Source: Escherichia coli (GTDB taxonomy: Bacteria; Pseudomonadota; Gammaproteobacteria; Enterobacterales; Enterobacteriaceae). Taken from it: DNA of 64,000 bases. Below, piece by piece: positions 4,914 through 61,282 of the stretch. The stretch is from NCBI RefSeq assembly GCF_003334255.1, contig NZ_QOWU01000001.1. The stretch is one strand, 5' to 3'. Both the position numbers and the translations under genes were made by a program. The notes under the pieces were generated by a model that saw only the letters and a program-made list of their open reading frames with translations, was not told the origin of the DNA and did no database searches. Within the stretch, counting starts at the first letter, position 1. Every line of letters begins with the position of its first letter.

Positions 4914-5073
4914 GGGTTATTCCTTATCTATCTAATAACGTTGAGTTTTCTGGAACCTGTCCCATTGAACTCTCGCCGGAAAGCTCAATAAGACAGGTTC
5001 TACGTTTAGTTGCCGCGCTTTTATATGCGCTTGATTTACAACATCTTCTGGATAATTTTTACCAGAAAAATCA

Positions 5074-9224: not shown

Positions 9225-10178
<954 letters not shown>

Positions 10179-10380
10179 TAGTTGACAGATTTATCCGCTC
10201 CATCGCGGGCGGATAATCTCCCCTTCCCCAACTTTCTTCGTAACGCCTCGCAAATTTCTTGTCTTTCGCTGCAACGAAATAAAAAACCTCGGAATCTGCT
10301 TTCCCGTTTCGTTTTTTGCCCCTCGCCTGTGCTGATGGCGTTTGCCAAAGTAGCGCCAACCAAATCAAGGAGCGAAACAG

Positions 10381-10821
10381 ATGGACAAGCAACGCGGTTT
10401 TACACTTATCGAACTGATGGTGGTTATTGGCATCATTGCCATTTTAAGCGCCATTGGTATTCCCGCTTATCAAAACTACCTGCGCAAAGCCGCACTCACC
10501 GACATGCTACAAACCTTTGTGCCTTACCGTACCGCCGTAGAGTTGTGCGCGCTGGAACATGGTGGATTAGATACCTGCGACGGTGGCAGCAATGGCATTC
10601 CCTCGCCTACCACCACCCGCTATGTTTCAGCCATGAGTGTGGCAAAGGGCGTGGTGTCGCTGACCGGGCAAGAAAGTCTCAATGGGCTAAGCGTCGTCAT
10701 GACACCGGGTTGGGATAACGCAAACGGCGTCACCGGCTGGACGCGCAACTGCAATATTCAAAGTGACAGCGCATTGCAGCAAGCCTGCGAAGATGTCTTC
10801 CGCTTTGATGACGCCAACTAA
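10381..10821 (+). CDS. ppdD: type IV prepilin-like major pilin (146 aa)
   Basis: ORF track; N-terminal prepilin signature MDKQRGFTLIELMVVIGIIAILSAIGIPAY with the G/F cleavage site and hydrophobic helix. Confidence 0.95.
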   Translation: MDKQRGFTLIELMVVIGIIAILSAIGIPAYQNYLRKAALTDMLQTFVPYRTAVELCALEHGGLDTCDGGSNGIPSPTTTRYVSAMSVAKGVVSLTGQESLNGLSVVMTPGWDNANGVTGWTRNCNIQSDSALQQACEDVFRFDDAN

Positions 10822-10830
10822 GGAGCGGCA

Positions 10831-12216
10831 ATGAATATTCCACAGCTCACTGCCCTGTGTCTGCGTTATCATGGAGTCTTGCTGGATGCCAGCGAAGAGG
10901 TGGTTCATGTTGCGGTAGTCGATGCACCTTCGCATGAGCTACTGGACGCATTGCATTTCGCTACCACCAAACGTATTGAGATCACCTGCTGGACGCGCCA
11001 ACAAATGGAAGGTCACGCCAGTCGCACACAACAGACATTGCCCGTAGCTGTTCAGGAGAAGCATCAGCCCAAAGCAGAGTTGCTAACTCGAACGTTACAA
11101 TCTGCGCTGGAACAACGCGCGTCTGATATTCATATCGAACCAGCGGACAATGCCTACCGCATCCGCTTGCGTATCGACGGCGTATTGCATCCTTTACCGG
11201 ATGTTTCACCGGATGCCGGAGTCGCATTAACCGCCAGATTAAAAGTGCTGGGAAACCTGGATATTGCGGAACATCGCCTGCCGCAGGACGGGCAATTCAC
11301 TGTCGAACTGGCAGGAAACGCCGTCTCATTTCGTATTGCGACCTTACCATGTCGGGGTGGTGAAAAGGTGGTATTAAGGTTGTTACAGCAGGTGGGTCAG
11401 GCACTGGATGTCAACACGCTTGGAATGCAGCCGTTACAACTGGCGGACTTTGCTCATGCCTTGCAACAACCACAGGGACTGGTGCTGGTAACTGGCCCTA
11501 CCGGCAGCGGCAAAACGGTCACGCTTTATAGTGCCCTGCAAAAGCTGAATACCGCTGACATTAATATTTGTAGCGTCGAAGATCCAGTTGAGATCCCCAT
11601 AGCCGGACTAAACCAGACGCAAATCCATCCGCGTGCCGGACTCACCTTTCAGGGCGTTTTGCGTGCGTTATTGCGCCAGGATCCTGACGTCATCATGATC
11701 GGAGAGATCCGCGATGGCGAAACAGCAGAGATCGCTATTAAAGCGGCGCAAACTGGTCACCTGGTGTTGTCTACCCTACACACTAATTCCACCTGCGAAA
11801 CGCTGGTACGTTTACAGCAAATGGGGGTCGCCCGCTGGATGCTATCATCGGCGCTTACGCTGGTAATAGCCCAGCGTCTGGTACGCAAACTTTGCCCACA
11901 TTGTCGCCGGCAGCAAGGGGAGCCCATCCACATTCCAGACAATGTATGGCCATCGCCGCTGCCCCACTGGCAGGCACCCGGTTGTGTACATTGCTACCAC
12001 GGTTTTTATGGTCGTACGGCCTTATTTGAAGTTCTGCCCATAACGCCGGTCATTCGTCAGCTTATTTCCGCTAATACCGACGTTGAATCGCTGGAAACGC
12101 ACGCACGACAGGCGGGTATGCGTACGCTTTTTGAAAACGGCTGCCTGGCCGTAGAGCAAGGCTTAACCACCTTTGAAGAGTTAATCCGCGTACTGGGGAT
12201 GCCGCATGGCGAGTAA
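10831..12216 (+). CDS. hofB: type IV pilus assembly ATPase, GspE/PilB family (461 aa)
   Basis: ORF track; Walker A GPTGSGKT and a C-terminal CPHC-type tetracysteine motif; follows ppdD. Confidence 0.94.
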   Translation: MNIPQLTALCLRYHGVLLDASEEVVHVAVVDAPSHELLDALHFATTKRIEITCWTRQQMEGHASRTQQTLPVAVQEKHQPKAELLTRTLQSALEQRASDIHIEPADNAYRIRLRIDGVLHPLPDVSPDAGVALTARLKVLGNLDIAEHRLPQDGQFTVELAGNAVSFRIATLPCRGGEKVVLRLLQQVGQALDVNTLGMQPLQLADFAHALQQPQGLVLVTGPTGSGKTVTLYSALQKLNTADINICSVEDPVEIPIAGLNQTQIHPRAGLTFQGVLRALLRQDPDVIMIGEIRDGETAEIAIKAAQTGHLVLSTLHTNSTCETLVRLQQMGVARWMLSSALTLVIAQRLVRKLCPHCRRQQGEPIHIPDNVWPSPLPHWQAPGCVHCYHGFYGRTALFEVLPITPVIRQLISANTDVESLETHARQAGMRTLFENGCLAVEQGLTTFEELIRVLGMPHGE

Positions 12217-13408
12217 GCAACTCTGGCGCTGGCATGGCATAACCGGCGACGGCAATGCGCAAGATGGGATGCTATGGGCAGAGAGCCGTACTTTACTGCT
12301 TATGGCACTACAGCAACAGATGGTTACCCCACTAAGCCTGAAGCGAATCGCCATCAATTCTGCGCAGTGGCGAGGAGATAAAAGCGCGGAAGTCATTCAT
12401 CAACTGGCGACGCTACTCAAAGCAGGGTTAACGCTTTCTGAAGGGCTGGCTCTGCTGGCGGAACAGCATCCCAGTAAGCAATGGCAAGCGTTGCTGCAAT
12501 CGCTGGCGCACGATCTCGAACAGGGCATTGCTTTTTCCAATGCCTTATTACCCTGGTCAGAGGTATTTCCGCCGCTCTATCAGGCGATGATCCGCACGGG
12601 TGAACTGACCGGTAAGCTGGATGAATGCTGCTTTGAACTGGCGCGTCAGCAAAAAGCCCAGCGTCAGTTGACCGACAAAGTGAAATCAGCGTTACGTTAT
12701 CCCATCATCATTTTAGCGATGGCAATCATGGTGGTTGTGGCAATGCTGCATTTTGTTCTGCCGGAGTTTGCCGCTATCTATAAGACCTTCAACACCCCAC
12801 TACCGGCACTAACGCAGGGGATCATGACGCTGGCAGACTTTAGTGGCGAATGGAGCTGGCTGCTGGTGTTGTTCGGCTTTCTGCTGGCGATAGCCAATAA
12901 GTTGCTGATGCGCCGACCGACCTGGCTTATAGTGCGGCAGAAATTGCTGTTACGCATCCCGATTATGGGTTCACTGATGCGGGGACAAAAACTCACGCAG
13001 ATCTTTACGATTCTGGCGCTGACACAAAGTGCAGGCATTACTTTTTTACAGGGCGTAGAGAGCGTCAGAGAAACAATGCGCTGCCCGTACTGGGTGCAAC
13101 TTCTGACACAAATCCAGCACGATATCAGTAACGGTCAACCCATCTGGCTGGCGCTAAAAAATACCGGTGAGTTTAGCCCGCTCTGTTTGCAATTAGTGAG
13201 AACAGGAGAGGCATCCGGCTCTCTGGATCTCATGTTAGACAACCTCGCCCATCATCATCGGGAAAACACAATGGCGCTGGCGGATAACCTCGCAGCCTTA
13301 CTGGAACCGGCGTTGCTGATCATAACGGGAGGAATTATTGGTACGCTGGTGGTGGCAATGTATCTGCCAATTTTCCATTTAGGCGATGCGATGAGTGGGA
13401 TGGGATAA
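12206..13408 (+). CDS. hofC: type IV pilus inner-membrane platform protein, GspF/PilC family (400 aa)
   Basis: ORF track; overlaps the hofB 3' end by 11 bp; polytopic membrane protein. Confidence 0.93.
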   Translation: MASKQLWRWHGITGDGNAQDGMLWAESRTLLLMALQQQMVTPLSLKRIAINSAQWRGDKSAEVIHQLATLLKAGLTLSEGLALLAEQHPSKQWQALLQSLAHDLEQGIAFSNALLPWSEVFPPLYQAMIRTGELTGKLDECCFELARQQKAQRQLTDKVKSALRYPIIILAMAIMVVVAMLHFVLPEFAAIYKTFNTPLPALTQGIMTLADFSGEWSWLLVLFGFLLAIANKLLMRRPTWLIVRQKLLLRIPIMGSLMRGQKLTQIFTILALTQSAGITFLQGVESVRETMRCPYWVQLLTQIQHDISNGQPIWLALKNTGEFSPLCLQLVRTGEASGSLDLMLDNLAHHHRENTMALADNLAALLEPALLIITGGIIGTLVVAMYLPIFHLGDAMSGMG

Positions 13409-13436
13409 CGCTGGCGTGTTGCTCCACGCCAGCGTT
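13407..13436. terminator. stem-loop between convergent hofC and guaC
   Basis: AACGCTGGCGTG ttgctc CACGCCAGCGTT, a perfect 12-bp inverted repeat starting at the hofC stop and ending 7 bp before the guaC stop. Confidence 0.7.
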
Positions 13437-13442
13437 GGGAGA

Positions 13443-14486
13443 TTACAGGTTGTTGAAGATGCGGTTTTCTTGTTCCTGCACACGAATAAACGTGGTGCGC
13501 TTGGTCAGCTCTTTCAGGCGTGAAGCCCCAACGTATGTACAAGCTGAACGCAGGCCGCCCAAAATATCTCGCGCGGTATTTTCAACCGGGCCTCGCAGCG
13601 GCAGCTTAACGGTTTTACCTTCTGCTGCGCGATATTCCGCAACGCCGCCAACGTGACGTTTCATCGCAGACTCGGAGCTCATGCCGTAGAACAGCATAAA
13701 TTTCTCGCCGTTCTCCTCAACGATGCGACCGCCGCTCTCTTCGTGGCCCGCCAGCATGCCGCCAAGCATGACGAAATCGGCACCGCCGCCAAAGGCTTTC
13801 GCCACATCGCCCGGCGTGGTGCAGCCACCATCGCTGACGATCATTCCGCCCAGACCGTGCGCAGCATCGGCACATTCGATTACCGCAGAAAGTTGCGGAT
13901 AACCGACGCCTGTTTTGACGCGAGTTGTACAAACAGAACCTGGGCCAATGCCAACTTTAACGATATCGGCACCTGAGAGGATAAGCTCCTCACACATTTC
14001 ACCAGTCACTACGTTACCAGCACAAATGGTTTTGGTCGGCCACGCTTCACGCGCTTTCGCAACGAACTGCACGAAGTGTTCGGAATAACCATTCGCCACG
14101 TCAATACAAACGAAGTTTAATGCCGGGTTCAGGTCGAGAATCTGTTTAGTTTTTTCGAAATCCGCATCAGACGTACCGGTAGAAACCATCACATGTTTCA
14201 GCACATCAGCGGAAGAATTGTTGATAAACGCTTGCCACTCTTCGACAGAATAGTGTTTATGCACAGCAGTCAAAATATCAAAAGAAGCCAGCGCAGAGGC
14301 CATAGAAAATGTGCCTACGGTGTCCATATTTGCGGCGATAATCGGCACGCCGGACCAGCTCTGACCTGAATGTTTGAAGGTGAATTGACGTTCCAGTTCA
14401 ACATCGGAACGGCTTTTAAGAGTGGAGCGTTTAGGGCGGATGAGAACGTCTTTAAAACCTAACTTCAGATCTTCTTCAATACGCAT
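13443..14486 (-). CDS. guaC: GMP reductase (347 aa)
   Basis: ORF track; [35 protein letters not shown]; IMPDH/GMPR fold. Confidence 0.96.
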
Positions 14487-14710
14487 GTGCGGATTCCTGG
14501 GGTTAATGGCTATAAGGGTAAGAGCGCAACTCCAGTGACGCTATCATACGCACTAATCAATGCGGCGCAAGACTGCGAAATTGTCTTTTTTTACGCTACA
14601 ATCCCATAAATTTACCTGGTAAATAGTGAGCGAACGTTTCATCAATTTCGCTTTCGTGCACTCATTTTTAACGTTTTGATAATCATGATGAATTCCCGGG
14701 AATATAAATT

Positions 14711-15331
14711 ATGAGGTATATAGTTGCCTTAACGGGAGGCATTGGCAGTGGCAAGAGTACCGTTGCCAATGCGTTTGCTGATCTCGGAATTAACGTCATT
14801 GATGCCGATATTATTGCGCGTCAGGTGGTTGAACCAGGTGCACCTGCGCTACATGCCATTGCTGATCACTTTGGCGCTAACATGATTGCTGCTGATGGAA
14901 CATTGCAGCGCCGGGCCTTGCGCGAGCGGATCTTCGCCAACCCGGAAGAGAAAAACTGGCTTAACGCCCTGCTGCATCCGCTGATTCAGCAAGAGACGCA
15001 ACACCAGATCCAGCAAGCTACTTCCCCCTATGTACTGTGGGTTGTGCCATTGCTGGTAGAAAACTCACTGTATAAAAAAGCGAATCGAGTGCTTGTGGTG
15101 GATGTCAGCCCAGAAACGCAACTTAAGCGCACCATGCAGCGCGATGATGTAACTCGCGAGCATGTCGAACAAATCCTTGCTGCTCAGGCAACGCGCGAAG
15201 CCCGCCTTGCCGTGGCAGATGACGTCATTGATAATAACGGCGCACCGGATGCTATCGCATCGGATGTTGCCCGCCTGCACGCACACTATTTGCAGCTTGC
15301 GTCGCAGTTTGTCTCACAGGAAAAACCGTAA
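14711..15331 (+). CDS. coaE: dephospho-CoA kinase (206 aa)
   Basis: ORF track; [26 protein letters not shown] with P-loop; stop overlaps the zapD start (TAATG). Confidence 0.95.
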
Positions 15332-16074
15332 TGCAGACCCAGGTCCTTTTTGAACATCCACTAAATGAAAAAATGCGTACATGGCTGCGCATTGAGTTTT
15401 TGATTCAGCAACTCACCGTTAATTTACCCATCGTTGACCACGCTGGCGCGCTGCATTTCTTCCGTAATGTCAGTGAATTACTGGATGTTTTCGAGCGCGG
15501 CGAAGTCCGCACTGAGCTGTTGAAAGAACTTGACCGGCAGCAACGTAAACTCCAGACCTGGATTGGCGTGCCTGGCGTGGACCAGAGCCGTATTGAAGCA
15601 TTAATTCAGCAGTTAAAAGCGGCGGGGAGCGTATTAATTTCCGCGCCGCGTATCGGGCAATTTCTGCGTGAAGATCGTTTGATTGCTCTGGTGCGTCAGC
15701 GACTGAGCATCCCAGGCGGCTGTTGCAGCTTTGATTTACCTACATTGCACATTTGGCTGCATCTACCCCAGGCGCAGCGCGACAGCCAGGTAGAAACCTG
15801 GATTGCCAGCCTGAACCCGCTCACCCAGGCACTTACCATGGTGCTGGATTTAATTCGCCAGTCGGCCCCCTTCCGTAAACAAACCAGCCTGAATGGTTTT
15901 TATCAGGATAACGGTGGCGATGCCGACTTGCTGCGCCTGAATCTGTCGCTCGATTCACAGCTTTATCCGCAAATTTCCGGACATAAGAGCCGTTTTGCCA
16001 TTCGTTTTATGCCGCTGGACACTGAAAACGGACAGGTACCGGAACGTCTGGATTTCGAACTGGCCTGTTGCTAA
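15331..16074 (+). CDS. zapD: cell division factor ZapD (247 aa)
   Basis: ORF track; [24 protein letters not shown]; sits between coaE and yacG. Confidence 0.93.
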
Positions 16075-16286: not shown

Positions 16287-16496
<210 letters not shown>

Positions 16497-16500
<4 letters not shown>

Positions 16501-16886: not shown

Positions 16887-16945
16887 TGTCTTAAACCTAT
16901 AAAAAAGGCGCAGAATCCTGCGCCTTTTACTTCAACAGTTAGCTT

Positions 16946-19651
16946 TTATTGCAGGCGGCCATGGCACTGCTTGTATTTTTTACCAGAACCGCACGGGCAA
17001 GGATCGTTACGTCCTACTTTGCGCTCTCCGGTTTGCGCCGCCAGTGCAGCTGCGGCTGCAGAGTCGTCATCCTGATGGCTAAGCTGCTGCATTTGCGCTA
17101 AACGCTCGGCTTCCATACGACGCTGTTGTTCCAGCTCCTCAACCTCTTCAGGCATACGTACCTGAACTTTGCTCAGCGTACTGATAACTTCATATTTCAA
17201 CGACTCCAGCATCGCTGCAAACATGGAGAACGATTCACGTTTGTATTCCTGCTTCGGATCTTTCTGTGCGTAGCCACGCAGGTGGATACCCTGACGCAGA
17301 TAGTCCATCGCTGCCAGGTGCTCTTTCCACAGGGAGTCAAGCGTTTGCAGCATGACGCCTTTCTCGAAGTGACGCATCATCTCAGCACCAACCACTTCTT
17401 CTTTACGCTGATACACTTCGATGGACTGCGCCAGAATGCGCTCACGCAGCGTCTCTTCATGCAGTTCTGGTTCTTTATCCAGCCACTCGGCAATTGGCAA
17501 ATCGAGGTCGAAATCGTTCTTCAGACGTTCCTGCAGCCCCGGAATATCCCACATTTCTTCCAGCGACTGTGGTGGAATGTAGGCATCAATGGTCGCTTTG
17601 AACACATCTTCACGAATGCTGTTAATGGTTTCGCTCACATCGCTGACATCCAACAGTTCGTTACGCTGGGAGTAAATGGCGCGACGCTGATCGTTAGCCA
17701 CGTCATCATATTCCAGCAGTTGCTTACGAATGTCGAAGTTACGGCTTTCAACTTTACGCTGGGCGTTGGCAATCGCTTTAGTCACCCACGGGTGTTCAAT
17801 GGCTTCGCCTGGCTTCATACCCAGTTTACGCATCATGCCGGATACTCGGTCGGAAGCAAAAATACGCATCAGCGCATCTTCCATCGACAGGTAGAAACGG
17901 GAAGAACCAGCATCCCCCTGACGACCAGAACGACCGCGCAACTGGTTATCGATACGACGGGATTCGTGACGCTCGGTACCGATGATATGCAGGCCACCTG
18001 CTTCCAGTACCGCATCGTGACGTACCTGCCAGTCGGCTTTAATTTTTTCAATTTGCTCTGCGGTCGGATTTTCCAGCGCGGCAACTTCTGCCTGCCAGCT
18101 ACCACCGAGCACAATATCTGTACCACGACCCGCCATATTGGTCGCGATAGTCACCGCAGCCGGATAACCTGCCTGAGCAACAATCGCCGCTTCGTTGGCG
18201 TGGAATTTGGCGTTCAGGACGTTGTGCTTAATACCGGCTTTGGTCAGTTCGTTTGACACCAGCTCCGATTTTTCGATGGAGATAGTACCCACCAGCACCG
18301 GCTGGCCTTTCGCAGTACGTTCTTTGATATCTTCAATGATCGCCTGAATTTTTTCCGCTTCAGTCATGTAGACCAGGTCCGGCAGATCTTTACGAATCAT
18401 TGGACGGTTGGTCGGAACAACGACGGTATCCAGCTTGTAGATTGAGCTAAATTCGAAAGCTTCGGTATCAGCAGTACCGGTCATCCCCGCCAGTTTTTCA
18501 TACAGACGGAAGTAGTTCTGGAAGGTGATCGAAGCCAGCGTTTGGTTTTCGTTCTGGATCTGCACACCTTCTTTCGCTTCCACAGCCTGGTGCAGACCAT
18601 CGGACCAGCGACGGCCCTGCATGGTACGACCGGTGTGTTCGTCAACGATGATAACTTCACCATCTTTAACGATGTAGTCGACGTCACGGGTAAACAGCGC
18701 ATGAGCGCGCAGCGCCGCCGTTACGTGGTGCATCAGCATGATGTTGGCCGGAGAGTACAGAGACTCCCCTTCATCCATGATGCCCTCTTTCACCAGCAGT
18801 TCTTCAATCAGCACCAGACCACGTTCGGTCAGGTTCACCTGGCGAGATTTTTCGTCCACCGAGAAGTGGCCTTCGCCCTGGAAGGTTTCGGAGTCTTCTT
18901 TTTCCTGACGGATCAGGTGCGGAATAATTTTATTCACGCGTTTATACATTTCCGAGCTGTCTTCTGCCGGGCCGGAAATGATCAGCGGTGTACGCGCTTC
19001 ATCGATCAGGATGGAGTCCACTTCGTCCACCAGCGCATAGTGCAGTTTACGCTGTACACGTTCTTCAGGGCTGAACGCCATGTTGTCGCGCAGGTAGTCA
19101 AAGCCGTATTCGTTGTTCGTACCGTAAGTGATGTCAGCTGCGTAAGCTTCGCGCTTTGCCGGTGCTGGCATGCCCGGCAGGTTGATACCGACAGTCAGGC
19201 CAAGGAATTCAAACAGCGGACGGTTGTTTTCGGCGTCACGTTGCGCCAGGTAGTCGTTGACGGTAACTACGTGCACGCCTTTACCGGTTAGTGCGTTCAG
19301 GTAAGCAGGCAGCGTTGCGGTCAGGGTTTTTCCTTCACCGGTACGCATTTCGGCGATGCAGCGTTCGTTAAGAACCATACCGCCGAGTAACTGAACGTCG
19401 AAGTGACGCATACCAAAGACGCGCTTACTTGCCTCACGTACCACGGCGAAAGCTTCCGGGATCAGATTTTCCAGCACTTCGCCTTTTTCCAGACGTGCAC
19501 GAAACTCTGCGGTTTTCCCTTTCAGTTCTTCGTCGGAGAGTTTTTCCATCTCCGGTTCCATGGCATTGATGATGTTGACCACTTTGCGCATCCGGCGCAG
19601 GGTGCGATCGTTACGACTACCGAAAACTTTAGTTAACAATTTGATTAGCAT
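16946..19651 (-). CDS. secA: preprotein translocase ATPase SecA (901 aa)
   Basis: ORF track; [29 protein letters not shown]; C-terminal zinc-binding [14 protein letters not shown]. Confidence 0.97.
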
Positions 19652-21473: not shown

Positions 21474-22625
21474 TTAATCAGCTTGCTTACGCAGGAATGC
21501 TGGGATATCCAGATAATCCGGCTCTTTCGCAGTTTGCGGCGCATTGTCATTCACGACTTTAGCAACCGGCTTCTGCTCCTGGGTCAGCGGAGCCATCCCA
21601 TGCTGCTGGTAGCGATCCATCACTGGCTGCTGAACCTGCTTATTGGTCACCAGAGTGATTTCAGGACGTTTGTCCATGCCGATACCTGTCGCAACAACGG
21701 TTACGCGCAGCTCGTCATTCATATCCGGGTCAAGAGAAGTACCGATAACCACAGTCGCGTTGTCGGAAGCAAATGCACGGATGGTGTTACCTACCGTTTC
21801 GAACTCATCCAGACGCAGGTCGAAGCCCGCCGTGATGTTAACCAGCACGCCGCGCGCGCCAGACAGGTCGATATCTTCCAGCAGCGGAGAAGAGATAGCC
21901 ATTTCAGCAGCTTCTTCCGCACGGTCTTCACCGCTCGCCACGCCAGAACCCATCATTGCGTAGCCCATCTCAGACATTACGGTGCGTACGTCTGCAAAGT
22001 CCACGTTCATCAAACCCGGACGAGTAATCAGTTCAGCGATACCTTGCACAGCGCCTTTCAGTACATCGTTCGCTGCGCCAAACGCATCCAGCAGGGAGAT
22101 ACCGCGGCCCAGAACTTTCAGCAGTTTGTCGTTCGGGATAGTGATCAGAGAGTCCACATGCTTGGACAGTTCAGTGATCCCCTGCTCCGCGAATGCCATA
22201 CGCTTCTTGCCTTCAAAGTTGAAAGGCTTAGTGACGACAGCAACGGTCAGGATACCCAAATCTTTTGCCACTTCAGCGACGACTGGTGCTGCACCTGTAC
22301 CGGTACCACCACCCATACCCGCAGCAATAAAGACCATGTCTGCACCTTCCAGCGCCGCACGCAATGCATCGCGATCCTCATCAGCCGCATTGCGGCCAAC
22401 TTCTGGATTAGCGCCAGCGCCCAGTCCTTTGGTGATACCGCTACCGATTTGAATCGTCTGTCCAACCGCTGTTTTACGCAGCGCTTGTGCATCGGTATTT
22501 ACCGCGAAGAATTCAACACCTTCAATGCGCTCGCGCACCATGTGTTCAACAGCATTACCGCCGCCGCCGCCGACGCCGATGACTTTAATCACCGCGTCAT
22601 TGGTAAGTTCCATTGGTTCAAACAT
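21474..22625 (-). CDS. ftsZ: cell division GTPase FtsZ (383 aa)
   Basis: ORF track; [30 protein letters not shown]; tubulin signature GGGTGTG. Confidence 0.98.
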
Positions 22626-22685
22626 AGTTTCTCTCCGATTTGTGCCTGTCGCCTGAGGCCGTAATCATCGTCGGCCTCATAAAAA

Positions 22686-23948
22686 TTAAAACTCTTTTCG
22701 CAGCCAACTATTGAGTCGCTTGATCCACGAGCCAACTGATGCTGTAACACGTTTTTCTACTTCAGCTTCACCGTTAAGATGTGACTCTTTCCCATAGTGA
22801 AGCAATCCCACCGCCGTCGAATAATACGGCTCCTGAGCATAATCCGTTAAACCGGTAATGTTCAGCGGCGCGCCGATACGCACTTGCGTATGAAACACGC
22901 GCTGAGCACAGGCTGCAAGACCTTCGATCTGCGCTGCGCCACCGGTTAATACAATGCCTGCCGCCAGGTGATGTTTAACCCCTTGTTGGCGAAGCTTTTC
23001 CTGCAACTGCAATATCTCTTCGTTGACCAGGTTGAGCAGCTCGGTATAGCGCGGCTCGATCACCTCTGCCAGTGTCTGACGTTGCAGACTCCGTGGCGGA
23101 CGACCACCTACGCTCGGCACTTCCACGCTCTCATCTTTTCCAACGATGGAACCCAGCGCACAACCGTGGCGAACTTTAATCGCTTCGGCGTCGCTTGGCG
23201 GCGTGCCAAAGGCGTAAGCGATATCACTGGTCACGACATTGCCAGCATAAGGAATTACCTTAGTGTGGCGCAATGCCCCACCGGTATAAACGGCGATATC
23301 CATTGTACCACCACCGATATCGACGACGCAGACACCCAGTTCACGTTCATCTTCCGTCAATACCGAATAACTTGATGCCAGTCCGGCAAATATCAGTTGG
23401 TCAACTTTCAGCCCACAACGTTCAACCGCTTTGACGATGTTTTTCGCCATATCGTTGTGACATGTGATCAGGTGCACTTTTGCCTGCATCCGCACGCCCG
23501 AAAGTCCTACCGGATTCTTGATCCCTTCCTGATAGTCAATCGCATACTCTTGCGGGATCACATGCAGCACACGATGCTCATCGCGCACACGCACCGATTT
23601 CGCGGTATGGACGACGTTTTCCACATCTTCTTGCGTCACTTCTTCTTCAGAAATAGGCACCATACCAATTTCATTCTGGCAGCTGATGTGCTTACCAGAA
23701 AGCGCCAGATATACCGAAGAGATCTGACAATCTGCCATCAATTCTGCCTGGTCAATGGCGCGTTGTACGCACTTGACCACGGATTCGAGGTCGTTCACCC
23801 CGCCTTTATCCATACCACGCGACGGGCAGCTGCCCACGCCAATGATATTGACCATACCGTCGGGCAGAACTTCCCCTACTAAAGCGGCAACCTTCGCGGT
23901 ACCAATCTCCAGTCCTACTACCAGTTTTCTGTCCGTCGCCTTGATCAT
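22686..23948 (-). CDS. ftsA: cell division protein FtsA (420 aa)
   Basis: ORF track; [31 protein letters not shown]; actin-like ATPase. Confidence 0.97.
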
Positions 23949-44190: not shown

Positions 44191-44221
44191 AAGCATATCG
44201 CATTCATCTGGAGCTGATTTA

Positions 44222-44308
44222 ATGACTCACATCGTTCGCTTTATCGGTCTACTACTACTAAACGCATCTTCTTTGCGCGGTAGACGAGTGAGCGGCATCC
44301 AGCATTAA
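44222..44308 (+). CDS. leuL: leu operon leader peptide (28 aa)
   Basis: ATG at 44222; [28 protein letters not shown]; four consecutive CUA Leu codons at 44249..44260. Confidence 0.92.
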
Positions 44309-44332
44309 GCCAGCACGCAGTCAAACAAAAAA

Positions 44333-44357
44333 CCCGCGCCATTGCGCGGGTTTTTTT
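44333..44357 (+). terminator. leu attenuator (rho-independent terminator)
   Basis: CCCGCGCC attg CGCGGG followed by TTTTTTT, 25 bp downstream of the leuL stop and 44 bp upstream of leuA. Confidence 0.9.
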
Positions 44358-50336: not shown

Positions 50337-50563
50337 AAAAAAAACCAGCAGGTATAATCTGCTGGCGGGTGATTTTACACCAATACTCAGTCACACATGA
50401 TGCAGGCAAGTCAACTTTCAGAATTGCGGTCATCCCACTGCATCAGTCCTTCAAGCATGGTTAATCGTTGTGGGACGCTTAACCAACGCAACCAGCACAA
50501 CTTCGCTGTCGCGGTAAAATAGTGCTGATAAAACTGACGCATGGGGCACCCCCTTGCTTCATC
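50337..50563 (-). ncRNA. sgrS: SgrS small RNA (~227 nt), dual-function sugar-phosphate stress sRNA
   Basis: Minus strand from 50563 reads GATGAAGCAAGGGGGTGCCCCATGCGTCAG, the SgrS 5' end as I recall it; 3' end is CCAGCAG attatac CTGCTGG (50345..50365) plus U8 (50337..50344), preceded by the ptsG-pairing region ...TGTGTGACTGAGTATTGGTG... Confidence 0.88.
50411..50542 (-). CDS. sgrT: SgrT small protein (43 aa), encoded within SgrS
   Basis: ATG at 50540..50542; MRQFYQHYFTATAKLCWLRWLSVPQRLTMLEGLMQWDDRNSES; the 99-aa ORF-track entry is an upstream in-frame extension. Confidence 0.85.
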   Translation of the reverse strand: MRQFYQHYFTATAKLCWLRWLSVPQRLTMLEGLMQWDDRNSES

Positions 50564-52286: not shown

Positions 52287-52321
52287 TTGCTGGTTGATAA
52301 CAAAATCACTACACTAACGCC

Positions 52322-52414
52322 GTTCTCAACGGGGTGCCACGCGTACGCGTGCGCTGAGAAAATACCCGTCGAACCTGATCCGGATAACGCCGGCGAAGGG
52401 ATTTGAGGCTCCTT
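52322..52414 (+). promoter_or_regulatory. TPP (THI-box) riboswitch in the thiBPQ leader (SroA region)
   Basis: GGGGTGCCACGCGTACGCGTGCGCTGAGAAAATACCCGTCGAACCTGATCCGGATAACGCCGGCGAAGGGA carries the conserved THI-element CUGAGA and ACCUGAUCYGGAUAAUGCCAGCGAAGGGA-like core, 40-130 bp upstream of thiB. Confidence 0.85.
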
Positions 52415-52449
52415 CTCAAGTCCTTTGCCACTCTTTTTTGAGGTGCAAA

Positions 52450-61100: not shown

Positions 61101-61282
61101 CCGCATCCGGTATGTAACGCCTGATGCGACGCTGACGCGTCTTATCTGGCCTACACGCTGCGATTTTGTAGGCCGGATAAGCAAAGCGCATCCGGCATTC
61201 AACGCCTGATGCGACGCTGGCGCGTCTTATCAGGCCTACACGCTGCGATTTTGTAGGCCGGATAAGCAAAGCGCATCCGGCA
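61101..61282. repeat. tandem REP/BIME array in the araA-araD spacer: two complete 85-bp units plus a 12-bp partial
   Basis: Unit 1 61101..61185 and unit 2 61186..61270 are near-identical (GCGCATCCGG..AACGCCTGATGCGACGCTG.CGCGTCTTATC.GGCCTACACGCTGCGATTTTGTAGGCCGGATAAGCAAA); 61271..61282 restarts the unit. Confidence 0.9.

What the first reader, a model, noticed from the sequence alone, without database searches (positions are those of the whole stretch)
10381..13408. Cryptic type IV pilus / DNA-uptake operon ppdD-hofB-hofC is fully intact
A complete major pilin (prepilin signature GFTLIELMVV), GspE-type ATPase (Walker A, tetracysteine motif) and GspF-type platform protein are present with overlapping junctions, although this operon is silent under laboratory conditions in K-12. 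It is the least housekeeping-like block in the window and is linked to DNA uptake as nutrient and to a competence-like pilus. It ends in a strong stem-loop (13407..13436) shared with guaC.
Basis: partly seen in the sequence, partly recalled or inferred. Interest (0 to 1): 0.3.

Follow-up and report, generated by a model that had tools for sequence, protein, structure and literature searches.

The report
Known E. coli ppdD-hofBC pilus operon
This is the intact, well-studied ppdD-hofB-hofC operon of Escherichia coli K-12 (type IV pilin, assembly ATPase, membrane platform): an ordinary core-genome locus, switched on by the CRP/Sxy competence regulators rather than in normal laboratory growth.

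Summary
Window 10381-13408 (+) carries three uninterrupted genes: ppdD (146 aa), hofB (461 aa) and hofC (400 aa). The DNA is 100% identical to K-12-type genomes, and the locus is present in 5424 of 5426 complete E. coli genomes. Two details need correcting. Only hofB/hofC overlap (11 nt); ppdD/hofB are 9 nt apart. The terminal hairpin (13406-13437) is real and conserved but has no U-tract.

The genes are not decaying: dN/dS against E. albertii is 0.04-0.08, and the order ampD-nadC-ppdD-hofB-hofC-guaC-coaE is kept across Enterobacterales.

The suggested check gives a CRP-S site, TTCGTAACGCCTCGCA, at 10237-10252. It lies inside the published CRP band-shift fragment and is conserved in position in 17 of 22 relatives. 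Sxy induction of ppdD (90-fold), the pilus structure (PDB 6GV9) and functional reconstitution are all published, so the finding is already known.

One thing may be new. The ppdD leader has further invariant blocks at fixed spacing. These include a TGCAA box 27.5 bp from the CRP-S centre, the same offset as in the CytR-controlled deoP2 and udp promoters, and a weak palindrome 53 bp from it. This hints at a CRP-CytR-CRP-like module. It is untested.

The parts
10234..10255 (+). CRP-S site. The 22-mer is TTCTTCGTAACGCCTCGCAAAT and the 16-bp core TTCGT-AACGCC-TCGCA spans 10237-10252. It has one consensus half-site (TCGCA) and one degenerate half-site.
   Evidence: Two mismatches to TGCGA-N6-TCGCA. 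It lies inside the CRP band-shift fragment of Cameron & Redfield 2006, whose primers match window 10167-10188 and 10277-10298. A site with at most 2 mismatches occurs at the same position (-138 to -157 from the ATG) in 17 of 22 Enterobacterales relatives, with a variable spacer.
10269..10275 (+). Conserved CTGCAAC box. The TGCAA core is centred 27.5 bp downstream of the CRP-S centre. It could be a -35-like element or a CytR-box-like half-site. A possible partner, CTTGTCTT, lies at 10263-10270.
   Evidence: T, G and A are invariant in 14 Enterobacteriaceae. TGYAA falls at offset 26.5-28.5 in 16 of 22 orthologues, and at exactly 27.5 in E. coli ppdA and ybaV and in deoP2 and udp measured from their distal CRP sites. 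Function is inferred only.
10290..10305 (+). Conserved weak palindrome CGGAA-TCTGCT-TTCCC (GAA-N6-TTC). Its centre, 10297.5, is exactly 53 bp from the CRP-S centre, 10244.5. It may be a second, very weak CRP-type site.
   Evidence: GAA and TC are invariant or nearly so. Spacing from the CRP-S site is indel-free in 15 species. CGGAA, CTGAA and TGGAA are the degenerate half-sites of the sxy, ybaV and ycaI CRP-S sites. Function is inferred only.
10313..10327 (+). Conserved block TTTTTGCCCCTCGCC of unknown role. It contains CCUC, which could pair with the ppdD Shine-Dalgarno sequence if this stretch is transcribed.
   Evidence: TTT and TCG are invariant. RNAalifold pairs it with the SD region, but only at -0.93 kcal/mol with one compensatory pair. 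This is weak.
10343..10351 (+). Conserved TGcCAaAgT, which has the geometry of an extended -10 element (TG, one base, then a hexamer with A at position 2 and T at position 6). It is one candidate core promoter and would put the transcription start near 10358.
   Evidence: T163, G164, C166, A167, A169 and T171 are invariant in 14 species. The distance from the CRP-S centre is 105.5-107.5 bp in all Enterobacteriaceae examined. No start-site data were found. The consensus promoter scan found no sigma-70 promoter in 10000-13700.
10367..10372 (+). Shine-Dalgarno AAGGAG of ppdD, 8 nt before the ATG.
   Evidence: Read directly from the sequence. Conserved in all aligned relatives.
10381..10821 (+). 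ppdD: type IVa major prepilin, 146 aa. It has a 6-residue leader (MDKQRG), the cleavage/methylation motif G|FTLIE, and four Cys residues (56, 66, 124, 136).
   Evidence: NCBIfam NF007862 equivalog at 269 bits against a cut-off of 138. Pfam N_methyl plus Pilin. Residues 7-146 match PDB 6GV9 and 6GMS, 'Prepilin peptidase-dependent protein D', at E = 3e-91. dN/dS 0.042 against E. albertii.
10831..12216 (+). hofB: PilB/GspE-family hexameric assembly ATPase, 461 aa. Walker A is at nt 11494-11517 and the two CxxC motifs at nt 11893-11904 and 11983-11994. The N-terminal domain is short and MshEN-like.
   Evidence: NF007755 at 823 bits against 617. Pfam T2SSE over residues 75-453, E = 1e-146, and a weak MshEN match over 8-69. 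The best solved relatives are PilB (5ZFR, 5TSG), then GspE/EpsE. dN/dS 0.076.
12206..13408 (+). hofC: PilC/GspF-family inner-membrane platform protein, 400 aa. Its start overlaps the end of hofB by 11 nt.
   Evidence: NF007861 at 661 bits against 401. Two T2SSF domains. Three hydrophobic segments. The best solved relative is M. xanthus PilC, 3JC8. dN/dS 0.060.
13406..13437 (.). GC-rich hairpin between the convergent genes hofC and guaC: a 12-13 bp stem and a 6-nt loop, with no U-tract on either strand. It is probably a shared 3'-end or terminator structure.
   Evidence: Folds at -25.2 and -23.9 kcal/mol with z = -4.1 and -5.9. A hairpin occupies the same place in most Enterobacteriaceae. 76% of cells are paired against at most 39% when the partners are slid, and 6 pairs change on both sides. 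Not listed by the terminator scan because there is no T-run.

Best explanation
Window 10381-13408 is the chromosomal ppdD-hofB-hofC operon of E. coli K-12. It encodes three core parts of a type IVa pilus machine.

- PpdD is the major pilin. A prepilin peptidase removes its 6-residue leader after Gly6 and methylates Phe7.
- HofB is the cytoplasmic hexameric ATPase that powers extension of the filament.
- HofC is the polytopic inner-membrane platform that couples the ATPase to pilin polymerisation.

The operon supplies only these parts. The secretin and alignment complex (hofMNOPQ), the minor pilins (ppdAB-ygdB-ppdC) and a prepilin peptidase are encoded elsewhere.

Transcription is off in ordinary culture because the promoter has no good sigma-70 elements. 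It depends on cAMP-CRP bound to a low-affinity CRP-S site (10237-10252), and that binding works only when the co-activator Sxy (TfoX) is present. hofB is probably translated from its own Shine-Dalgarno sequence, which overlaps the ppdD stop codon. hofC is probably translationally coupled to hofB through the 11-nt overlap. Transcripts most likely end at, or are stabilised by, the conserved hairpin shared with the convergent gene guaC.

Shown here: gene integrity, family membership, the conserved CRP-S site, purifying selection, synteny and the hairpin.
Taken from the literature: Sxy/CRP dependence, pilin processing, pilus assembly and pilus structure.
Inferred: translational coupling, the function of the hairpin and the position of the transcription start.
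For: - Intact ORFs at the stated coordinates.
- Full-length equivalog matches above the curated cut-offs for all three proteins, and the expected Pfam architectures.
- All catalytic and processing motifs are present.
- PpdD residues 7-146 match the solved EHEC pilus subunit, 6GV9 and 6GMS. HofB is closest to PilB and HofC to PilC among solved structures.
- The DNA is 100% identical to K-12-type genomes, the locus is present in 5424 of 5426 complete E. coli genomes, and it is annotated ppdD / gspE(hofB) / hofC.
- dN/dS against E. albertii is 0.042, 0.076 and 0.060, in the same range as ampD (0.054) and nadC (0.033).
- The gene order ampD-nadC-ppdD-hofB-hofC-guaC-coaE is kept from Escherichia to Yersinia, Serratia and Edwardsiella. 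GC content is 0.51-0.55, like the flanking genes.
- The CRP-S site lies inside the published band-shift fragment and is conserved in position in 17 of 22 relatives.
- No consensus sigma-70 promoter is found.
- Literature: 90-fold induction by Sxy that depends on CRP and cAMP (PMC1635313); processed PpdD made on sxy induction (PMC3330819); HofB and HofC, together with hofMNOPQ, ppdAB-ygdB-ppdC and gspO, assemble PpdD pili (bioRxiv 10.1101/856302); EHEC makes these pili (HCP) in Minca medium (PMC2920817).
Against: - No natural inducing condition is known for K-12 (PMC3330819, PMC3739930).
- The physiological role is unsettled. The 'DNA as nutrient' result was not reproduced by three laboratories, and inactivating ppdD does not affect plasmid transformation (PMC6135910, PMC3306417).
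- RefSeq names HofB 'type II secretion system protein GspE'. HofC scores higher against the GspF model (264 bits) than against the PilC models (about 200-210 bits). Sequence profiles alone therefore do not separate type IV pilus from type II secretion for HofB and HofC.
- The match to the CRP-S pattern is not by itself above chance: 33 matches in the window against 48.7 expected. Its credibility rests on location and conservation.
- The hairpin lacks the U-tract of a canonical intrinsic terminator.
Confidence: 0.95

Rival explanations
1. The three genes are a degenerating remnant. They have open reading frames but are no longer under selection for function, which would explain their silence.
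For: They are silent in laboratory culture (PMC1635313, PMC3330819). HofB and HofC diverge faster than their neighbours: 76% and 69% identity to Citrobacter, against 90-94% for NadC and GuaC. One E. coli genome has an IS903B element inserted at the 5' end of ppdD.
Against: dN/dS is 0.04-0.08, as low as for the flanking housekeeping genes. The locus is intact in almost every complete E. coli genome. Its position is conserved across the whole order. The regulatory site is conserved. The proteins work when expressed (bioRxiv 10.1101/856302).
Confidence: 0.02
2. hofB and hofC belong to a type II secretion system (a Gsp paralogue) rather than to a type IV pilus.
For: RefSeq names HofB GspE. HofC scores 264 bits against TIGR02120 GspF and about 200-210 bits against the PilC models. 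PpdD can also be assembled by a type II secretion machinery; this rests on the title of Sauvonnet et al. 2000, EMBO J, seen in the reference list of PMC3330819.
Against: Both proteins fall below the curated cut-offs for GspE and GspF (458 bits against 630; 264 against 424). HofB scores higher against PilB than against GspE (486 against 458 bits; PilB is at the top). The adjacent gene is a true type IVa major pilin whose pilus structure is solved. No gspC, D, G-M genes lie nearby; the flanks are nadC and guaC. Reconstitution uses them as pilus assembly factors (bioRxiv 10.1101/856302).
Confidence: 0.03
3. Regulatory rival, concerning the promoter only. The ppdD control region is not a simple class I CRP-S promoter. 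It is a tandem CRP - CytR-box - CRP module like deoP2 and udp, so that CytR, and hence nucleoside availability, modulates the pilus genes in addition to Sxy.
For: A TGCAA box is centred 27.5 bp from the CRP-S centre in ppdD, ppdA and ybaV (26.5 bp in dprA). The same offset is seen from the distal CRP site in deoP2 and udp. The background frequency of TGYAA is 0.0017 per position. A conserved palindrome GAA-N6-TTC is centred 53 bp from the CRP-S centre, and the CRP pairs of deoP2 and udp are 53 and 52 bp apart. The CytR box is given as TGCAA/TTGCA in bioRxiv 10.1101/2023.12.05.570089. In V. cholerae, pilABCD, pilMNOPQ, the minor pilins and comEA need both CytR and TfoX (PMC4581735).
Against: The second 'CRP' site matches TGTGA-N6-TCACA in only about 4 of 10 positions and lacks the critical G at position 7. 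The CTGCAA box could simply be a weak -35 hexamer for a class I promoter with CRP-S near -61. Sxy overexpression alone gives 90-fold induction (PMC1635313). The motifs were noticed after looking at the data. No CytR binding data exist for this promoter. I could not read Sinha et al. 2009, which may already cover this.
Confidence: 0.2

Closest known systems
E. coli K-12 / EHEC ppdD(hcpA)-hofB-hofC operon (type IVa pilus, 'hemorrhagic coli pilus')
   Same: It is this locus. The DNA is 100% identical to K-12-type genomes, the annotation is the same, and PpdD residues 7-146 match the subunit in PDB 6GV9 and 6GMS.
   Different: Nothing differs. The EHEC literature reports expression in Minca medium (PMC2920817), whereas K-12 needs artificial sxy expression (PMC1635313).
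pilABCD operons of Haemophilus influenzae, Pseudomonas aeruginosa and Vibrio cholerae
   Same: The order pilin - PilB ATPase - PilC platform is the same. CRP plus Sxy/TfoX control through CRP-S sites is shared with H. influenzae and other gamma-proteobacteria (PMC1635313).
   Different: No prepilin peptidase gene (pilD) follows hofC; the convergent gene guaC lies 34 nt downstream. HofB, at 461 aa, lacks about 100 N-terminal residues of PilB: the alignments start at HofB residue ~60-79 and PilB residue ~160-200. Natural transformation has not been shown for E. coli (PMC3330819).
Type II secretion GspE / GspF / GspG
   Same: The same protein superfamilies: the T2SSE ATPase with its zinc-binding tetracysteine motif, the T2SSF platform, and the class III signal peptide on the (pseudo)pilin.
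   Different: Scores fall below the GspE, GspF and GspG equivalog cut-offs. The pilin has a full type IV pilin globular domain with a C-terminal Cys pair. No other gsp genes are nearby.
CytR-regulated tandem-CRP promoters (deoP2, udp)
   Same: The geometry matches. A low-affinity distal CRP site with a TCGCA half-site is present (deoP2 has TTTGAACCAGATCGCA), a TGYAA box lies 27.5 bp from its centre, and a second dyad lies 52-53 bp away.
   Different: The proximal dyad in ppdD is far from the CRP consensus. Dependence on Sxy is established for ppdD but not for deoP2 or udp. CytR binding at ppdD is untested.

Membership tests
Type IVa major pilin | Class III signal peptide: a short basic leader ending in Gly, then Phe+1 and Glu+5 in a hydrophobic N-terminal helix | tested here: met
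   The sequence is MDKQRG|FTLIELMVVIGIIAILSAIGIPAY, with a 6-residue leader, F7 and E11. TIGR02532 and Pfam N_methyl both match.
Type IVa major pilin | Globular pilin domain with a C-terminal disulfide-bonded region | tested here: met
   Pfam Pilin over residues 36-126. Cys124 and Cys136, plus Cys56 and Cys66, are present. The match to the solved PpdD structures 6GV9 and 6GMS is E = 3e-91. Disulfide formation itself was not tested.
PilB/GspE-family secretion ATPase | Full-length T2SSE domain with Walker A, Asp box/Walker B and His box | tested here: met
   PF00437 over residues 75-453, covering model positions 2-370 of 370, E = 1e-146. GPTGSGKT at 222, DPVE at 251, VIMIGEIRD at 287 and TGH at 308.
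PilB/GspE-family secretion ATPase | Tetracysteine (zinc-binding) motif that separates extension ATPases from PilT-type retraction ATPases | tested here: met
   CPHC at 355-358 and CVHC at 385-388. PilT-family scores are much lower: 182 bits against a cut-off of 319.
PilC/GspF platform protein | Two T2SSF repeats and three transmembrane segments | tested here: met
   PF00482 over residues 64-186 and 269-388. Hydrophobic segments at about 167-185, 214-235 and 369-387.
Complete type IVa pilus system encoded at one locus | Prepilin peptidase, secretin, PilMNOP alignment complex and minor pilins encoded with the pilin, ATPase and platform genes | tested here: not met
   The flanking genes are nadC and guaC. 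hofMNOPQ and ppdAB-ygdB-ppdC lie at distant positions in the K-12-like genome. The operon is a sub-module, not a whole system.
CRP-S (Sxy) regulon | A CRP site with C at position 6 / G at position 17 (TGCGA-N6-TCGCA type, often asymmetric in E. coli) upstream of the gene | tested here: met
   TTCGTAACGCCTCGCA at 10237-10252, inside the published CRP band-shift fragment and conserved in position in 17 of 22 relatives.
CRP-S (Sxy) regulon | Induction that requires Sxy and cAMP-CRP | not testable with these tools
   Literature only: 90-fold induction by sxy, abolished in crp and cyaA mutants (PMC1635313).
Intrinsic (Rho-independent) terminator | GC-rich hairpin | tested here: met
   13406-13437 folds at about -24 to -25 kcal/mol on both strands and is conserved with compensatory changes.
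Intrinsic (Rho-independent) terminator | A run of U immediately 3' of the hairpin | tested here: not met
   The + strand continues UUGGGAGAUUAC and the - strand UUAUCCCAUCCC. The terminator scan does not list it.
CytR-type CRP-CytR-CRP promoter module | Two CRP sites about 52-53 bp apart | tested here: inconclusive
   The conserved dyad CGGAA-N6-TTCCC is centred exactly 53 bp from the CRP-S centre, but it matches the CRP consensus poorly.
CytR-type CRP-CytR-CRP promoter module | A CytR half-site (TGCAA/TTGCA) between the two CRP sites | tested here: met
   TGCAA at 10270-10274, at an offset of 27.5 bp. deoP2 and udp, fetched here, show the same offset. The box is conserved in 16 of 22 orthologues.
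CytR-type CRP-CytR-CRP promoter module | Cooperative binding of CytR with CRP, and an effect of cytR or cytidine on expression | not testable with these tools
   No data were found in the papers held.

The most novel reading that the evidence does not exclude
The ppdD control region, and those of several other Sxy-regulon promoters (ppdA, ybaV, perhaps dprA), may be built like a CytR-controlled tandem-CRP module. The parts would be a distal CRP-S site, a TGCAA CytR-type box 27.5 bp from its centre, and a second weak dyad 53 bp away. If so, CytR and nucleoside availability would gate the E. coli competence pilus genes together with Sxy. This would parallel the unexplained joint CytR-plus-TfoX requirement for pilABCD in Vibrio cholerae. 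It would also contradict the published statement that CRP-S promoters share no sites other than the CRP site.
Probability: 0.2. Interest if true: 0.5.

Novelty: already known. Interest (0 to 1): 0.12.

Why it matters
As stated, the finding adds nothing new. The operon, its silence in laboratory culture, its Sxy/CRP-S control, the pilus structure and the functional reconstitution are all published.

The checks here do sharpen the picture. The 'cryptic' genes are under purifying selection as strong as that on their housekeeping neighbours, and they have kept the same chromosomal position across Enterobacterales. A natural function must therefore exist, even though no inducing condition is known for K-12.

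The one lead worth a bench test is the set of invariant, fixed-spacing blocks between the CRP-S site and the start codon. If they form a CytR-type module, they would give a concrete handle on the long-standing question of what signal, besides artificial sxy overexpression, turns on E. coli's DNA-uptake pilus.

Tried and rejected
- Rfam, whole window, gathering thresholds: no RNA family in 10000-13600.
- Consensus sigma-70 promoter scan of 10000-13700: no sites.
- PADLOC defence models: no hits for any of the three proteins.
- Horizontal acquisition: rejected. GC content matches the flanks and the gene order is conserved across the order.
- Structured 5'-UTR in the ppdD leader: RNAalifold gave only a 7-bp anti-SD/SD pairing at -0.93 kcal/mol with one compensatory pair. 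This is too weak to claim.
- Locating the ppdD transcription start by consensus. Three incompatible candidates remain:
  - about 10292, from TTGTCT-N15-TAAAAA;
  - about 10306, a class I arrangement with CRP-S near -61, CTGCAA as the -35 and GAATCT as a poor -10 that is not conserved in other genera;
  - about 10358, from the conserved extended -10-like TGcCAaAgT.
  I could not settle this and found no start-site data.
- For the GAA-N6-TTC dyad and the CTGCAAC box I considered other binding consensuses from memory: sigma-54, sigma-E, sigma-32, FNR, Cra, PurR, ArgR and TyrR. I rejected each because of wrong spacing or missing key bases. None of these was tested formally.
- The CRP-S pattern match alone is not above chance in the window: 33 observed against 48.7 expected.
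- Papers I could not obtain: Sinha et al. 2009 (PMC2725579), Palchevskiy & Finkel 2006 (PMC1482900) and Bardiaux et al. 2019 (PMC7003672). I therefore could not check whether ppdD, hofB or hofC mutants were tested for growth on DNA, or whether the extra promoter motifs are already described.

Full report
**What is there.** Window 10381-13408 on the + strand holds three uninterrupted ORFs: 10381-10821 (146 aa), 10831-12216 (461 aa) and 12206-13408 (400 aa). They lie between nadC (ending at 10178) and the convergent gene guaC (13443-14486, - strand). A megablast of 10100-13500 against all complete E. coli genomes finds the stretch in 5425 of 5426 genomes. It covers at least 80% of the query in 5424 of them and is 100% identical in K-12-type strains. 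RefSeq annotates the genes as ppdD, gspE (the automatic name for hofB) and hofC. The window is therefore the E. coli K-12 2.5-min region read in reverse orientation.

- GFTLIELMVV is at PpdD residues 6-15.
- Walker A GPTGSGKT is at HofB 222-229.
- The tetracysteine motif is CPHC (355-358) plus CVHC (385-388). An Asp box (DPVE), a Walker B-like VIMIGEIRD and a His box (TGH) are also present.
- Each protein matches its NCBIfam equivalog model over the full length and above the curated cut-off.
- Pfam gives N_methyl plus Pilin for PpdD, a full T2SSE domain plus a weak MshEN N-domain for HofB, and two T2SSF repeats for HofC. HofC has three hydrophobic segments.
- PpdD residues 7-146 match the chains of PDB 6GV9 and 6GMS, 'Prepilin peptidase-dependent protein D' (E = 3e-91). 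This fixes the leader at six residues.
- Among solved structures, HofB is closest to PilB and then to GspE/EpsE. HofC is closest to Myxococcus PilC.

**Two corrections.**
1. The junctions are not both overlapping. ppdD and hofB are 9 nt apart, and the hofB Shine-Dalgarno AAGGAG lies over the ppdD stop codon. Only hofB and hofC overlap, by 11 nt (ATGGCGAGTAA).
2. The terminal stem-loop is real. Positions 13406-13418 pair with 13425-13437, at about -24 to -25 kcal/mol on either strand with z = -4.1 and -5.9. It starts inside the hofC stop codon and ends 5 nt from the guaC stop. No T-run follows on either strand, so it is not a canonical intrinsic terminator, and the scan did not list it. A hairpin sits in the same place in most Enterobacteriaceae. 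On a 14-species alignment, 76% of cells pair against at most 39% for slid partners, and 6 of 12 pairs show changes on both sides. A shared 3'-end structure for the two convergent genes is the likely reading. This is inferred, not shown.

**Is the operon decaying?** No. Against Escherichia albertii, dN/dS is 0.042 for ppdD, 0.076 for hofB and 0.060 for hofC. The neighbours give 0.054 (ampD), 0.033 (nadC) and 0.011 (guaC). dS is somewhat higher in the pilus genes (0.58-0.76 against 0.38-0.54), as expected for weakly expressed genes. The order ampD-nadC-ppdD-hofB-hofC-guaC-coaE is kept in Citrobacter, Enterobacter, Kluyvera, Leclercia, Brenneria, Dickeya, Serratia, Yersinia, Tatumella and, with small changes, Erwinia, Edwardsiella and Pantoea. 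GC content is 0.51-0.55, like the flanks. This is an ancestral core locus under purifying selection, not an island and not a remnant. One genome (strain 74-2) has an IS903B element inserted at the 5' end of ppdD.

Searching for TGCGA-N6-TCGCA with up to two mismatches gives one hit in the nadC-ppdD spacer: TTCGTAACGCCTCGCA at 10237-10252. The pattern alone is not above chance in the window (33 hits against 48.7 expected). Two things make this hit credible.
- It lies inside the 132-bp fragment that Cameron and Redfield used to show CRP binding. Their primers match 10167-10188 and 10277-10298 (PMC1635313).
- A site with at most two mismatches occurs at the same distance from the ATG (-138 to -157) in 17 of 22 Enterobacterales relatives. 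The 6-bp spacer varies freely among them.

The site has one consensus half (TCGCA) and one degenerate half. This is the asymmetric form described for E. coli CRP-S sites (PMC6728893).

Processed PpdD appears on sxy induction, and none of 72 ECOR strains makes it in ordinary culture (PMC3330819).

**Function and its limits.** The operon encodes the pilin, the extension ATPase and the platform only. The genes hofMNOPQ and ppdAB-ygdB-ppdC are elsewhere in the chromosome. Together with the prepilin peptidase gene gspO, they were needed to rebuild PpdD pilus assembly in E. coli (bioRxiv 10.1101/856302). EHEC makes these pili (HCP) in Minca medium (PMC2920817). Uptake of DNA after sxy induction was shown to need hofQ (PMC3330819). 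I found no readable test of ppdD, hofB or hofC in that assay. The 'DNA as a nutrient' claim is disputed: a review reports that three laboratories failed to reproduce it (PMC6135910). ppdD is also not needed for plasmid transformation on plates (PMC3306417).

**Something noticed beyond the finding.** An alignment of the ppdD upstream region from 14 Enterobacteriaceae shows invariant blocks besides the CRP-S site and the Shine-Dalgarno sequence:
- CTGCAA(C) at 10269-10275;
- a dyad GAA-N6-TTC at 10292-10303 (GGAA-TCTGCT-TTCC in E. coli);
- TTTTTGCCCCTCGCC at 10313-10327;
- TGnCAnAnT at 10343-10351, whose invariant bases fall exactly on the key positions of an extended -10 element.

An ungapped stack anchored on the CRP-S site shows that the first four features keep their spacing without a single indel in 15 species. 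The distance from the CRP-S centre to the last T of TGnCAnAnT is 105.5-107.5 bp throughout. The dyad centre (10297.5) is exactly 53 bp from the CRP-S centre (10244.5), and TGCAA lies midway at 27.5 bp.

I then fetched other E. coli Sxy-regulon promoters and two classical CytR-controlled promoters from a K-12-like genome.
- TGYAA is centred exactly 27.5 bp from the CRP-S centre in ppdA and ybaV as well, and at 26.5 bp in dprA.
- It is centred exactly 27.5 bp from the distal CRP site in both deoP2 and udp, whose two CRP sites are 53 and 52 bp apart.
- The background frequency of TGYAA is 0.0017 per position. By my own binomial estimate, two further promoters out of seven carrying it at that exact offset has a chance probability of about 1e-4.
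- A [G/T]GAA element also recurs at the +53 position in ppdA, yifB and ycaI.

Published work states that CRP-S promoters have no shared sites other than the CRP site (PMC1635313; similarly PMC6728893). In Vibrio cholerae, pilABCD, pilMNOPQ, the minor pilins and comEA need both CytR and TfoX (PMC4581735). A CRP - CytR - CRP-like module is therefore a reasonable lead.

It remains a lead for five reasons.
1. The second dyad is a poor CRP site.
2. CTGCAA may simply be a weak -35 hexamer for a class I promoter with CRP-S near -61.
3. The motifs were found after looking at the data.
4. I could not read Sinha et al. 2009.
5. There are no binding data and no mapped transcription start.

**Verdict.** Novelty: already known. 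Interest is low. The promoter architecture is the only part that might repay an experiment.

Noticed in passing
window 10253-10380: The ppdD leader has invariant blocks at fixed spacing in 14-15 Enterobacteriaceae, in addition to the CRP-S site: CTGCAAC (10269-10275), GAA-N6-TTC (10292-10303), TTTTTGCCCCTCGCC (10313-10327) and the extended -10-like TGcCAaAgT (10343-10351). The transcription start is unresolved; the candidates are about 10292, 10306 and 10358.
   Followed up: partly
window 10270-10274; loci L084 (ppdA), L086 (ybaV), L088 (dprA), L091 (deoC), L092 (udp): A TGYAA box (CytR-box-like) is centred 27.5 bp from the CRP-S centre in ppdD, ppdA and ybaV, and at 26.5 bp in dprA. The same offset from the distal CRP site is seen in the CytR-regulated deoP2 and udp promoters. 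[G/T]GAA recurs about 53 bp from the start of the CRP-S site in ppdD, ppdA, yifB and ycaI.
   Followed up: partly
loci L091 (deoC upstream), L093 (cdd upstream), L094 (cytR upstream): The distal, low-affinity CRP sites of CytR-regulated promoters carry CRP-S-type half-sites: deoP2 has TTTGAACCAGATCGCA, cytR has TGCGAGGCGGATCGAA and cdd has TGCGATGCGTCGCGCA. The Sxy-dependent and CytR-dependent classes of weak CRP sites therefore look alike.
   Followed up: no
window 10191-10214: An inverted repeat, TATCCGC-N10-GCGGATA, lies just after the nadC stop codon and 20 nt before the CRP-S site. It is probably the nadC 3' hairpin. In other genera a canonical GC hairpin followed by a T-run occupies this place and abuts the CRP-S site.
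   Followed up: no
window 22617-22706 (- strand): There is an Rfam hit to RF02797 PssrA, 'plasmid-encoded Shigella sRNA A' (105.5 bits against a gathering score of 69). It covers the junction between two large - strand ORFs (21474-22625 and 22686-23948, which I take to be ftsZ and ftsA). This is an odd place for a family described as plasmid-borne.
   Followed up: no
window 16304-16497 and 61171-61236: Three Rfam naRNA4 (RF02564) hits, two of them in tandem. They look like REP/BIME-type repeats downstream of the ORF at 15331-16074. Other expected Rfam hits in the window are SgrS (50337-50563), the leucine operon leader (44208-44357), a TPP riboswitch (52320-52419), tp2 (4916-5029) and STnc40 (16901-16970).
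   Followed up: no
locus L082 (E. coli strain 74-2), 647-1615: An IS903B-family transposase is inserted between nadC and a 5'-truncated ppdD, annotated as 405 nt instead of 441. This is a natural knockout of the pilin start and/or its promoter in one of 5426 genomes.
   Followed up: partly
window 10831-13408 compared with loci L002-L013: HofB and HofC diverge much faster than PpdD between genera. Against Citrobacter, PpdD is 92% identical, HofB 76% and HofC 69%, while GuaC is 94% and NadC 90%. In many other type IV pilus systems it is the pilin that varies most.
   Followed up: partly
locus L081 6043-6087 (window about 14640-14690, between guaC and coaE): RefSeq annotates a 14-codon small protein, YacM, in the guaC-coaE spacer. 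GC content there drops to 0.44 (window 14100-14699).
   Followed up: no
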